From: Pecten maximus
Taxonomy: Eukaryota
Length of the DNA: 64,000 nucleotides
NCBI RefSeq assembly: GCF_902652985.1
Contig: NC_047030.1
Location: 13,082,001 to 13,146,000 of the forward strand
Direction: 5' to 3'
Of the stretch, positions 42,601 to 45,600 are shown piece by piece (position 1 is the stretch's first letter; every line of letters starts with the position of its first letter). The position numbers are program-made.

Positions 42601-45600
42601 AAGAGGCCTGGTAGGCCTATATCGGTTATCAACAGGTTGTGGAACCACTGAAAATGCATATAAACACATTTGGTAGCTATTCATCTCAACGTGCTAATGA
42701 CCTTATAACGTGGGGCCTCCGAGTTATCGGGAAGCCGATGGAAGATTTTAACATTTGAACAAAAACAAAACAAACAAAAAACCAAAACAAATAAACTAAC
42801 AAAAATAAGTAAATAAATAACGATGAAAAATGAATAGATATAAATAATGAATCAAACGAAAAAAAATGAAAAAAAGGTGAATATAAAAAATAGGAAAATA
42901 ACATAATGAATAAAATAAGTAGCTTGAAGAAATGTTTAATTATATATAACAGGGGATGTGCAATATCCCTTTAATTCAACGAAACTTAATAAAATGTTGT
43001 ACTTTTATTGCAGTACCACATAACCTGGTCAGTGCCTATGATTATGGTTATGATTATCATGAGGACAATGATATATACAGCTTTGATCCTGGATTTGACC
43101 CTGACTTAGACCCTGGATTTGAAACAGCTCAATCTGACGCCACCATTGGAATGGAGACGGTGGCAAATGATGGCCGCAGACGAAAACCAGGAGCTGGACG
43201 AGGCAAAAAAACCAGCGTTAGATTCACAGGAATTGGGCCTGTGGTGACATCTGAACATTCTTTAGAAGGGACAATGGAAACTCTGTCGTTGGTAAATACA
43301 AGACATGGAAACAGCGTAACGACTGAGACCTGGGGTGTAACAAGCATGCCCACAACAGCGACTTTAATGTTCCGACCCACGGACATACTTGATGTTATTA
43401 GCACAGCCCCGTATGCAGATTCAACGAAAAGCGTGAATTTCAATGTATGGGAAGTACTTACATCCAATTACCAGACGACAGCGATATCATCTGATTTATT
43501 GTCACGTGATTATTTCAGTGTCATTCAATCCAATATACATCCCACGAAAACACTGGTTTCCTCCTTGGGAGAATTTCGAGCCGGAGATTATGGCATTGAG
43601 AGTGGAACTGATATTGTTGCGGCAACAGCACAAATCATATCAAATCTCGAGATAATACGCGGACAAGGAACGAGTGGTTACCAAACACCAGGTGAATTTG
43701 ATTTCCATATTCACAGTTCGATAGACGAAGTTGAGTTGTATGACTTTGATTCAGTGAGTGTGGGGGACATTTATTATGACTATGTAACAACAGACTGGGT
43801 AGGAAATTCCGGACATGCAACAATGGATGGGTTTGGTTCAAATGATTATGTCACAATGAATGTTTTGGGTTCATTCGACTACGGGTCTTTATATGGCTTT
43901 GGCACTAACGCAATTGTAACAAAGAGTGGATTTGGCTCAATCGATTATGCAACACTTCACGGATTTGGCACTGATGAATATATCACGATGGGTGAATTTG
44001 ATTCATATGATTATGGCACAATAAGCGGCTTAGGTTCAAACAGCTTTGGAACATTGGAAGAATTTGACGCTTACGAGCATACAATGATGAGTGGATACGG
44101 TTTGCACGACTTTTGGACTTCCGAATCTTTTGGCGCTTATGAAAAACCAACAAGGAGTGGAATTGAGCTTTACGATAATGGGACATTTGGAGTATTAGGC
44201 AGTGATGAATATGCAACAAATGATGGATTCAATTCTTATGGCATGAGTGAGGGAGCCGAGTGGTATGATTATGCTACGGTTGATGATTTACGCAATAATG
44301 AACATGCAAGCAAGAGTGGATTTGATTTGTATGACTATGGAACAGTAAGTGGGTTTGGCGATAATAGACACACAACAAAGGGTGCGTTCGATTCGTATGA
44401 CTATGGAACAGCAGGTGGGTTTGGCAATATGGGACACGCAACAAAGGTTCCGTTCGATGTATATGACTATGGAACAGCAGGTGGGTTTGGCAATAATAGA
44501 CACGCAACAAAGGGTGCGTTCGATTCGTATGACTATGGAACAGCAGGTGGATTTGGCAAAAATAGACACGCAACAAAGGGTGCGTTCGATTCGTATGACT
44601 ATGGAACAGCAGGTGGGTTTGGCAATATGGGACACGCAACAAAGGTTCCGTTCGATTCGTATGACTATGGAACAGCAGGTGGGTTTGGCAATAATAGACA
44701 CGCAACAAAGGGTGCGTTCGATTCGTATAACTATGGAACAAGGGATGGGTTTGGCAATAATAGACACGCAACAAAGGGTGCGTTCGATTCGTATAACTAT
44801 GGAACAAGGGATGGGTTTGGCAATGATGGACACGCAACGAAGGGTCCATATAGTGATTATGGCACCTTTGGAGGCATCGACAATAGCAAACATAGAACAA
44901 AAGATGAAATTGATCTGTACGACTATGATACATTAGATAGGACAATAGGTTTTCGACAGTTGTCAGAGGGAAAGCCAAATCTACATCCAACGGCATCCCG
45001 CTTATCGGGTGCAAACTACAGGATGTCAAAAAGTGTTGACCCCACTTATAACACTGACGATTCTGACGAATACAACAAGAAGAATGGTGGTGAACAATTC
45101 TTTGAAGGAAGCACTGGGTGCCCCTCCATGATACCAGACGCACATACACAAACACTTTCCTTAGCGCTATGTGTGTTTTTCTCTTGTAAACTCAGTCACT
45201 AAGAACTGTTTAGAAATATATCAAAAAGAAGACAATTTCAATTACAATGGAAAATGACAATGAAGAATAATAGATTTGGAGCATATTTCAAACATCTTTT
45301 CCCAAACGATTGAAAGAGCCAGTATGTTTTTTATGCGTAAATTCGGTAAAATGATATCGTCATAACATTATTATTAATGATTATTTTGTTTTATTCATAA
45401 TATGTAAATATAGAAGCGGATATGCTAATAAGGAAAGCCAATATATCCAATATTCCAGGCCATAATTATATTCCTTTGTCAGGACGTAATGAATAATTCG
45501 TAATTGAAAGGGACGTTAATTTAAAATAAACTCAAATTATTGTGGTTTTTTTTTCAGTACGATGCAAAAATTAAGAAATATCAATGTCGATGCTCTTTTA

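What the first reader, a model, noticed from the sequence alone, without database searches (positions are those of the whole stretch)
43790..44935. Gene C 11/22-aa Gly-Tyr-Asp-His repeat domain with an age gradient
Seen: near-perfect 66-bp repeats (~44315-44845) encode GAFDSYDYGTA+GGFGNNRHATK, alternating acidic-aromatic and basic-His half units. Upstream the same 11-aa period continues in strongly diverged form (GFGSNDYVTMN, GFGTDEYITMG, EFDSYDYGTIS). An RRRK basic site and a (D/P)PGFD triplet lie near the N-terminus. Known: Gly/Tyr-rich and Asp-rich low-complexity proteins occur in mollusc shell matrix and byssus, where Tyr can become DOPA and His binds metals. Inference: a charge-alternating beta-solenoid or coacervating structural protein, unusual in appearing GPI-anchored.
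Basis: partly seen in the sequence, partly recalled or inferred. Interest (0 to 1): 0.65.

Follow-up and report, generated by a model that had tools for sequence, protein, structure and literature searches.

The report
Orphan scallop gene with 11-residue repeats
This is an intact but apparently unannotated scallop gene for an acidic, tyrosine-rich repeat protein with no detectable relatives, a fairly ordinary kind of fast-evolving mollusc gene whose function is still unknown.

Summary
Window 44292-44845 is a 66-bp tandem array (8.4 copies, 88% matches, no indels). It lies in the longest open frame of the window, 42950-45202 (+), 750 codons. The same 11/22-residue period runs upstream in diverged form. 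I count 37 units from 43730 to 44941.

The window is scallop DNA. A neighbouring transporter exon is 99% identical to a Pecten maximus protein.

The frame looks coding:
- P(open by chance) is about 2e-20.
- The non-repeat part shows codon-position asymmetry.
- GC is 0.425 against 0.335 in the flanks.

No relative was found:
- Pfam gave nothing.
- The solved-structure sequence search gave nothing.
- 5.8 billion protein clusters gave nothing.
- 1.84 billion representatives gave 12 weak hits, all in the repeat region; the 8 I inspected are unrelated 11-residue repeat proteins.

Charge alternation exists only in the young 3' block. The "age gradient" is two plateaus plus a recent 198-bp segmental duplication. 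The signal-peptide-like start and GPI-like tail are plausible but weak. Fold, self-association and expression could not be tested.

Best reading: a lineage-restricted extracellular low-complexity repeat protein. A shell or byssus role is unproven.

The parts
42956..45202 (+). Candidate single-exon coding sequence: first in-frame ATG to the TAA stop, 748 codons. The stop-to-stop frame is 42950-45202.
   Evidence: Longest open frame in the window. At the window's empirical stop frequency of 0.0587 per codon, P(750 codons open) is about 2e-20. GC is 0.425 against 0.335 in 5-kb flanks.
42956..43036 (+). Signal-peptide-like first 27 residues: basic residues, a 7-residue hydrophobic core, Pro, then V-S-A before the first Tyr. 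This applies only if the ATG at 42956 is used.
   Evidence: Read. Best 8-residue Kyte-Doolittle mean is 2.0. No signal-peptide predictor was available, so this is inference.
43012..43013 (+). Alternative: an AG splice acceptor after a pyrimidine-rich tract. The exon would then start at 43014 in phase 1, with the start codon and signal peptide on an unseen upstream exon.
   Evidence: Sequence. One phase-compatible candidate exon is 38294-38450, ending in AAG|GTGAGT. It was 1 of 12 candidates in a loose scan. It was not joined and not searched.
43037..43153 (+). Acidic Asp/Tyr/Pro/Gly-rich N-terminal segment. It includes the 12-bp repeat at 43082-43122.
   Evidence: By composition, the region is Asp 20% and Tyr 11%, with 11 acidic and no basic residues in 46, pI 4.05. 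The 12-bp repeat has 3.4 copies. Its Y-D-Y-G stretch does not significantly match the repeat profile: 165 of 200 shuffles score as well.
43175..43210 (+). Basic cluster: RRRK, then a Gly/Ala/Arg stretch ending in KK. Possibly a dibasic processing site.
   Evidence: runs of two or more K/R residues listed. Cleavage is inference only.
43214..43729 (+). Non-repetitive Thr/Ser-rich middle region of about 172 residues.
   Evidence: No 11/22 periodicity in the N-terminal 227 residues. Codon-position asymmetry over the non-repeat stretch 43016-43696 (N-terminal segment plus most of this region) has chi2 38.6, against a 95th percentile of 18.2 for 945 background segments. It is the only region with a clearly positive composition fold index, +0.146. 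No Pfam family reaches its cut-off.
43730..44251 (+). Old, diverged part of the repeat domain: units 1-16 of 11 residues. Unit 16 lacks two residues.
   Evidence: Double units share 40-65% DNA identity. Mean pS is 0.71 against pN 0.43 over 21 pairs of 7 double units.
44252..44317 (+). Transitional double unit. It is the first to carry the basic, His-containing half.
   Evidence: About 60% DNA identity to the young units.
44318..44845 (+). Young 66-bp array: 8 double units, each an acidic aromatic half plus a basic His half.
   Evidence: Array reported at 44292-44845. Pairwise identity is 75-100%. Units at 44384 and 44582 are identical. 44450/44648 and 44714/44780 are 95% identical. This points to a 198-bp segmental duplication plus one tandem duplication. 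There are 25 distinct variants, 6 synonymous and 19 non-synonymous, a per-site ratio of 0.93.
44846..44941 (+). Three degenerate units at the 3' edge of the array.
   Evidence: profile match at model residues 632-651, score 14.1. DNA identity to the young units is 34-40% for the double unit at 44843 and 25-28% for the one at 44909.
44942..45199 (+). Non-repetitive C-terminal tail. The hydrophobic end is at 45149-45187 and the tail holds all three Cys of the exon.
   Evidence: Cys at exon residues 702, 719 and 724; best 12-residue hydrophobic mean is 2.14 and there is no 19-residue transmembrane-like stretch anywhere. The GPI-signal reading is inference.
45525..45530 (+). First AATAAA on the + strand after the stop, 323 nt downstream. 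Candidate polyadenylation signal.
   Evidence: The hexamer is common in this AT-rich window (166 matches on both strands), so this is weak evidence.

Best explanation
The finding is an intact, lineage-restricted protein-coding gene of a Pecten scallop.

What is shown:
- It encodes an acidic protein of about 750 residues with almost no Cys.
- The order of parts is: an acidic Asp/Tyr-rich start, a basic cluster, a non-repetitive Thr/Ser-rich middle region, 37 units of an 11-residue motif, and a short tail.
- The motif has Gly at position 1, Phe at 2, Gly or Asp at 3, Tyr or His at 7 and Thr at 9. Units are organised as 22-residue double units.
- The array grew by unequal crossing-over or segmental duplication in steps of 66 and 198 bp. 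The newest copies lie in the 3' half.
- That newest block amplified a variant double unit whose second half had become basic and His-bearing. This creates a local pattern of about -2 / +1 to +3.

What is inferred:
- The protein enters the secretory pathway. It is released or held at the cell surface by a lipid anchor.
- It acts as a multivalent low-complexity matrix or coat protein. Regularly spaced aromatic residues and, in the young block, alternating charges would drive self-association or binding to mineral, cations or other matrix polymers.

The tissue and the material it contributes to are unknown.
For: Coding:
- The frame has 750 open codons and is the longest in the window. The two next longest, 568 and 504 codons, lie in a non-coding satellite.
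- P(open by chance) is about 2e-20 for the whole frame and about 1e-6 for the 228 non-repeat codons alone.
- The non-repeat N-terminal part is G-rich at codon position 1, chi2 38.6 against a background 95th percentile of 18.2.
- There is a GC island, 0.425 against 0.335 in the flanks.
- Old units show pN 0.43 below pS 0.71.

Strand: the minus-strand frames are open only inside and just 3' of the repeats.

Organism: a neighbouring exon is 99% identical to a P. maximus protein and 83% identical to one from Mizuhopecten.

Orphan status:
- Pfam gave 0 families at E<=1 for the whole exon and nothing above cut-off for the parts.
- Sequence and profile searches of solved structures gave nothing better than E = 1.3.
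- The 5.8-billion-cluster search gave 0 hits.
- The exhaustive search of 1.84 billion representatives gave 12 hits at E<=0.001 and none at E<=1e-30. All lie in query residues 243-630. All 8 of the 12 that I inspected are carried by their own unrelated 11-residue repeats, judged by eye.
- There is no paralogue in the window.

Repeat dynamics.

Extracellular reading:
- Signal-peptide-like start, no transmembrane-like segment, hydrophobic C-terminal end.
- A neighbouring intronless Thr-rich mucin-like frame (22276-23355) has the same layout.

Kind: a review of mollusc mantle secretomes describes lineage-restricted secreted proteins with repeat units of about 10 residues that evolve by slippage (PMC4897951, passages read).
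Against: - No expression evidence of any kind was available.
- The protein is absent from collections that do hold this species' NCBI proteins. So either no annotated model exists there, or the model was dropped.
- Young copies differ at a non-synonymous/synonymous ratio near 1 (0.93; pN 0.128 against pS 0.116). The newest part therefore shows no detectable constraint.
- The signal-peptide-like core has only 7 hydrophobic residues. The first 58 nt after the ATG look AT-rich by eye, like the flanks, and end in a good AG acceptor. The true start may lie elsewhere.
- The C-terminal hydrophobic core is short, about 12 residues, and is followed by four polar residues.
- The last 264 nt show no codon-position asymmetry (chi2 4.4).
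- Function is inferred from composition alone.
Confidence: 0.55

Rival explanations
1. This is a shell-matrix or byssal structural protein. Its Tyr becomes DOPA and its His binds metals. It is built as a charge-alternating beta-solenoid and is GPI-anchored.
For: - The DNA is from a bivalve.
- The repeat domain is rich in Gly, Tyr, Asp and His.
- The conserved positions alternate in a strand-like way, followed by a Gly-rich turn (my reading).
- Tyr-rich proteins are reported among the main scallop byssus components (PMC9168380, passages read).
Against: - pI is 4.58 and Tyr is flanked by Asp. From recall, DOPA adhesive proteins are basic.
- The Chlamys byssal Tyr-rich proteins described are small (20.5 and 28.9 kDa), or one resembles mussel Mefp1.
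- Charge alternation is confined to the young block.
- No sequence link to any known shell or byssus protein was found.
- Composition indices put the repeats at the disorder border and rich in turn-formers.
- Fold and localisation are untested.
Confidence: 0.15
2. The frame is not a working gene. It is a young proto-gene or a recently silenced gene. Its repeat block is simply a coding-phase minisatellite drifting neutrally.
For: - It is absent from the protein collections although the neighbouring gene's P. maximus protein is present.
- No homologue was found in other annotated pectinids.
- The non-synonymous/synonymous ratio among young copies is 0.93.
- The window is full of non-coding tandem arrays, so expansion is common here.
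- The two published P. maximus annotations differ widely, over 67,700 against 26,995 genes (PMC8437780, abstract read). Presence or absence in an annotation is therefore weak evidence either way.
Against: - 750 codons are open. That includes 228 non-repeat codons with coding-type base asymmetry and units diverged to 40-65% identity without a single stop.
- pN is below pS among old units.
- There is a GC island.
- The frame begins and ends with secretory-type features.
Confidence: 0.15
3. Gene-model rival. The open frame is the large last exon of a multi-exon gene. The start codon and signal peptide lie on an upstream exon, and the ATG at 42956 is intronic.
For: - A pyrimidine-rich tract and AG end at 43013.
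- By eye the sequence turns more GC-rich at about 43014, and the 58 nt before it hold an AATAAA.
- A phase-1-compatible upstream candidate with a consensus donor exists at 38294-38450.
Against: - That candidate was 1 of 12 found by a permissive scan over 19 kb and has an atypical acidic second residue.
- The ATG at 42956 has a purine at -3 and is followed by a signal-peptide-like layout.
- The neighbouring mucin-like gene is also intronless.
Confidence: 0.3

Closest known systems
Lineage-restricted mollusc secreted proteins with repetitive low-complexity domains (mantle secretome / shell matrix class; examples recalled: shematrins, KRMPs, prismalin-14)
   Same: - Short repeat unit of about 10 residues.
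- Biased Gly/Tyr/Asp composition.
- No relatives outside a narrow lineage.
- Growth by slippage or unequal crossing-over, as described in PMC4897951 (passages read).
   Different: - No sequence similarity to any of them was found.
- The protein is acidic overall, whereas shematrins and KRMPs are recalled as basic.
- It has a long non-repetitive Thr/Ser-rich region and a GPI-like tail.
- Mantle expression or presence in shell is not shown.
Mussel foot proteins and sandcastle-worm cement proteins (recalled)
   Same: - Tandem units of about 10 residues with Tyr and Gly.
- Oppositely charged segments that could coacervate.
   Different: - Here Tyr sits beside Asp and pI is 4.58.
- No Lys-rich Tyr context.
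- No homology.
- Charge alternation lies within one chain and only in the young block.
Unrelated proteins with 11-residue tandem repeats found by the exhaustive search (P0001, P0003, P0009 and others)
   Same: - Same period.
- In P0003 the same Gly-Phe-Gly start and a Thr at position 9.
- P0009 carries a weak FG-nucleoporin-type match, below Pfam's cut-off.
   Different: - Similarity is confined to the repeat register, 17-34% identity.
- Flanking domains are unrelated.
- This is convergence, not kinship.
Neighbouring Thr-rich mucin-like gene in the same window (22276-23355)
   Same: - Intronless frame.
- Signal-peptide-like start.
- Coding tandem repeats with periods divisible by 3.
- Short hydrophobic C-terminal end.
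   Different: - Entirely different repeat chemistry (Thr/Ala/Ser/Pro).
- No sequence similarity.

Membership tests
Mollusc secreted proteins with repetitive low-complexity domains | Tandem short-unit repeat domain with biased composition | tested here: met
   37 units of 11 residues. Gly is 15-21%, Tyr 9-10% and Asp 10% in the repeat blocks.
Mollusc secreted proteins with repetitive low-complexity domains | Lineage restriction (no relatives outside a narrow clade) | tested here: met
   No true homologue in Pfam, the solved-structure sequences, 5.8 billion clusters or 1.84 billion representatives.
Mollusc secreted proteins with repetitive low-complexity domains | Signal peptide / secretion | tested here: inconclusive
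   The start is signal-peptide-like but has a short hydrophobic core. An alternative splice acceptor exists. No predictor was available.
Mollusc secreted proteins with repetitive low-complexity domains | Expression in mantle or presence in a shell, byssus or mucus proteome | not testable with these tools
   No transcript or peptide data could be reached. Supplementary protein lists of PMC5854119 and PMC9168380 were closed.
GPI-anchored surface proteins | C-terminal signal: small attachment-site residues, polar spacer, hydrophobic tail | tested here: inconclusive
   A Gly-Ser-Thr-Gly stretch is followed by a spacer of about 11 residues and a hydrophobic core of about 12 residues, then four polar residues. 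No GPI predictor was available.
GPI-anchored surface proteins | Release by phosphatidylinositol-specific phospholipase C | not testable with these tools
   This needs a bench assay.
DOPA-type adhesive foot proteins | Basic protein with Tyr in Lys/Pro/Gly-rich contexts (feature recalled) | tested here: not met
   pI is 4.58. Of 52 Tyr, 30 have an adjacent acidic residue and at most one basic residue within +-5.
RTX-type calcium-binding beta-roll repeats | Nonapeptide Gly-Gly-x-Gly-x-Asp repeat recognised by the Pfam model (motif recalled) | tested here: not met
   The period is 11, not 9. No Pfam match was found even at E<=10.
FG-nucleoporin-type cohesive repeats | Match to the Pfam FG-repeat model | tested here: not met
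   No Pfam match for this protein. Only an unrelated hit (P0009) carries a weak one.

The most novel reading that the evidence does not exclude
This is a Pecten-specific invention: a surface-tethered, self-associating protein whose many Asp-flanked tyrosines are sulfated rather than turned into DOPA.

That would give a densely anionic aromatic array. A recently amplified basic-His half-unit would now neutralise that array in register. The copy number of the 66-bp unit would then tune coacervation or cation binding.

It would also name a carrier for the sulfotyrosine signal seen in bivalve foot mucous glands. The proteins behind that signal are unidentified (PMC6262867, passages read).

The sulfation rule applied here (acidic neighbours, turn-forming residues, few basic residues) is recalled, not tested.
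Probability: 0.08. Interest if true: 0.6.

Novelty: new member of a known kind. Interest (0 to 1): 0.33.

Why it matters
- It is a clean example of a coding minisatellite building a new protein domain. An old acidic aromatic repeat persists, and a newer charge-patterned variant has been amplified within one gene. Old and young layers can both still be read.
- It also points to an annotation gap. A 750-codon open frame with coding signatures has no counterpart in very large protein collections.
- If it is expressed in mantle or foot, it would add a new sequence family to the scallop matrix or adhesive repertoire. It would also give a natural charge-alternating aromatic repeat for biomaterials work.
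- If it is not expressed, it is a useful case of a large proto-gene.

Tried and rejected
Tools that could not be run:
I kept the stated wait of twenty other calls each time. There is therefore no model and no fold search.
Searches gave no usable answer. I then stopped, so there is no verdict.

Searches that led nowhere:
- Rfam on the whole window gave 0 matches.
- The bacterial promoter and terminator scan is irrelevant to a eukaryote. Its repeated hits only mirror the array.
- NCBIfam gave 0 families. PHROGs gave one noise match at E = 0.15.
- A 22-position profile of 15 double units against solved structures gave only E = 1.3 noise.
- A literature search for four peptide strings from the repeat found 0 papers.
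- A search for GPI-anchored shell matrix proteins with tandem repeats listed 12 of 25 papers. None of the 12 held the term 'GPI-anchored'.

Ideas rejected:
- The N-terminal Y-D-Y-G stretch as a relic repeat unit: 165 of 200 shuffles score as well.
- A transposon origin: no terminal repeats beyond low-complexity A-rich and T-rich arms at 42758-42788 and 45606-45636, and no paralogue in the window.
- Minus-strand coding: those frames are open only across the repeats and the 3' tail.

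Full report
**What is there.** The window has no N and is 35.5% GC. The finding lies in one open frame, 42950-45202 on the + strand. At 750 codons stop to stop it is the longest in the window. Tandem Repeats Finder reports 44292-44845, period 66, 8.4 copies, 88% matches and no indels.

Laid out in rows of 11 residues, the same motif continues upstream to 43730 and downstream to 44941. That makes 37 units, two of them with small deletions. The best-kept columns are:
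- Thr at position 9, in 29 of 37 units.
- Phe at position 2, in 24 of 36.
- Gly at position 1, in 19 of 37.
- Tyr or His at position 7, in 27 of 37.

Protein autocorrelation confirms the period. At lag 22, z is 30.9 in the young block and 11.3 in the diverged block. The 95th percentile of the best shuffled lag is about 3.3. The N-terminal 227 and last 116 residues show no such signal. A profile built from the double units recovers 18 consecutive matches, which is expected by construction. It finds nothing significant in the N-terminal third.

**Whose DNA.** A large exon at 10236-11285 is 99% identical over its full length to a Pecten maximus protein named 'probable transporter MCH1'. It is 83% identical to the Mizuhopecten protein and 56-62% identical to other bivalve proteins. 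The window is therefore king scallop or a very close relative (taxonomy). Nothing in it looks human.

**Is it coding?** Several lines say yes.
- At the window's own stop frequency (0.0587 per codon), 750 open codons have a probability of about 2e-20. The 228 non-repeat codons alone have about 1e-6.
- The non-repeat N-terminal part shows the base asymmetry of coding DNA, with G 0.34 at codon position 1. Its chi2 is 38.6, against a 95th percentile of 18.2 for 945 background segments.
- The frame is a GC island, 0.425 against 0.335 in both 5-kb flanks.
- Old double units have diverged to 40-65% DNA identity without acquiring a stop. Their mean non-synonymous difference (0.43) is below the synonymous one (0.71). 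This covers 21 pairs of 7 double units. The first and last old units were left out, and the pairs are not independent.

Against this, the young copies differ at a ratio near 1: 6 synonymous and 19 non-synonymous distinct variants, 0.93 per site. The last 264 nt also carry no asymmetry. Minus-strand frames are open only across the repeats and the 3' tail.

**How the array grew.**
- Units at 44384 and 44582 are identical. 44450/44648 and 44714/44780 are 95% identical.
- The simplest history is a 198-bp (three double-unit) segmental duplication plus one single-unit tandem duplication, on top of an older 66-bp expansion.
- Lag-66 identity runs from 0.35 to a plateau near 0.6 at 43829-44060. It dips to 0.32 at a two-codon deletion (44159-44192), climbs from 0.5 to 1.0 at 44687, and falls abruptly after 44753.
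- So there are two age classes, a 5'-to-3' rise within the younger one, and three degenerate units at the 3' edge. It is not a single smooth gradient.
- Several differences between copies are clustered multi-base changes.
- The basic, His-bearing half-unit first appears at 44285 and exists only in the young block. There 8 of 8 acidic halves are net negative. Of 9 basic halves, 7 are net positive and 2 neutral. In the old block 15 of 17 units are net negative.
- The amplified block thus spread a derived, charge-patterned variant of an older, uniformly acidic aromatic repeat.

**Gene model.** Two models fit, and I cannot choose between them.
- Model (a): a single exon from the ATG at 42956, which has a purine at -3. 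Its first 27 residues have basic residues, a 7-residue hydrophobic core, a Pro, and V-S-A before the first Tyr.
- Model (b): a last exon starting at 43014 after a pyrimidine-rich tract and an AG, in phase 1. One phase-compatible upstream candidate, 38294-38450, ends in a consensus donor. It was 1 of 12 found by a loose scan.

I searched the main exon alone. At the 3' end the protein has no transmembrane-like 19-mer. It ends in small residues, a spacer, a hydrophobic core of about 12 residues and four polar residues. That is GPI-signal-like but short. All three Cys lie in the last 27 residues, and there is one N-glycosylation sequon. The first + strand AATAAA after the stop is at 45525. A neighbouring intronless Thr-rich mucin-like frame (22276-23355) has the same start-repeats-hydrophobic-end layout.

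**Relatives.** None were found.
- Pfam gave 0 families at E<=1 for the exon and nothing above cut-off for five sub-regions.
- NCBIfam gave 0 and PHROGs gave noise.
- Sequence and profile searches of solved structures gave nothing better than E = 1.3.
- The word-indexed search of 5.8 billion clusters gave 0 hits.
- The exhaustive search of 1.84 billion representatives gave 12 hits at E<=0.001, 1 at E<=1e-10 and 0 at E<=1e-30. All lie inside query residues 243-630.
- I inspected 8 of the 12. Each has its own tandem repeat of 11 residues with otherwise unrelated sequence, judged by eye. Alignments to P0003 and P0001 match only in the repeat register. Their Pfam content is nil or unrelated.
- Not even a self-match appeared. 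Exact look-ups of two candidate products failed. Yet the neighbouring gene's P. maximus protein is in the collection.
- So this frame seems to have no model in that annotation. I could not see the annotation itself. The two published annotations of this species differ widely (PMC8437780, abstract).
- There is no paralogue in the window.

**What it probably does.**
- Shown: an acidic protein (pI 4.58) with aromatic residues at 18% of the repeat domain at regular spacing. Tyr lies mostly beside Asp: 30 of 52 Tyr have an adjacent acidic residue and at most one basic residue nearby.
- A crude composition index calls the middle region foldable (+0.146). It puts the repeats at the border (-0.016 old, -0.066 young), and they are rich in turn-formers.
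- Inferred: a secreted or lipid-anchored low-complexity matrix or coat protein. Evenly spaced aromatic 'stickers' and, in the young block, alternating charges would give multivalent self-association or binding to cations, mineral or other polymers.
- This is the class described for mollusc mantle secretomes: lineage-restricted proteins with repeat units of about 10 residues that evolve by slippage (PMC4897951, passages).
- The acidic Tyr context argues against a mussel-type DOPA adhesive (recalled as basic). It fits a calcium-binding or sulfated-tyrosine protein at least as well. Sulfotyrosine-positive, unidentified proteins occur in mussel foot mucous glands (PMC6262867, passages).
- Scallop byssus does contain Tyr-rich proteins, but those described are small or Mefp1-like (PMC9168380, passages).
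- The P. maximus shell proteome paper (PMC5854119, passages) gives no sequence detail in its text. Its supplementary lists, and those of the byssus paper, were closed. They might hold peptides from this frame.

**What stayed unchecked.** Fold (beta-solenoid versus disorder) and self-association could not be tested, because the tools did not accept jobs (49-75). Also untested: expression, localisation, orthologues in other scallop genomes (no eukaryotic genome collection was available), and copy-number variation.

**Verdict.** The thing is most likely a genuine, orphan, fast-evolving repeat-protein gene of a kind that is common in molluscs. Interest is moderate to low. The main points of note are the two-layer repeat history, the derived charge-patterned unit and the apparent annotation gap.

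Noticed in passing
window 22276-23355 (+): Intronless Thr-rich mucin-like open frame of 360 residues. It has a signal-peptide-like start, nested coding tandem repeats (periods 30, 105, 135 and 240 bp) and a short hydrophobic C-terminal end. It has no Pfam match and fails an exact look-up in the protein collection.
   Followed up: partly
window 31035-31366 (+): Short Thr-rich frame followed, in another reading frame, by a C-terminal stretch resembling the tail of the mucin-like gene at 22276-23355. It looks like a shortened or frame-shifted paralogue. The segment also shows strong 3-base periodicity.
   Followed up: no
window about 6724-6918, 8677-8898, 10236-11285 (+): Three exons of an MFS / nodulin-like 'MCH1-like' transporter gene. 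The last exon is 99% identical to the Pecten maximus protein.
   Followed up: partly
window 989-4416, 13994-15522, 24273-25042, 53137-55899, 59575-60282, 60410-63801: Six large non-coding satellite arrays with periods 44, 28, 19, 33/67, 73 and 8/23/30 bp. They produce long spurious open frames of up to 568 codons.
   Followed up: no
window 49731-50426 (+): A 231-codon frame whose sequence recalls the C-terminal end of a non-LTR retrotransposon ORF2 (my recollection). It has no Pfam match.
   Followed up: no
window 41181-41522 (-): A 113-codon frame in a locally GC-rich patch about 1.4 kb upstream of the repeat gene. It has no Pfam match.
   Followed up: no
window 42758-42788 and 45606-45636: A-rich and T-rich low-complexity stretches form an imperfect inverted pair (31 nt, 81%) bracketing the repeat gene. 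This is probably a coincidence of composition.
   Followed up: no
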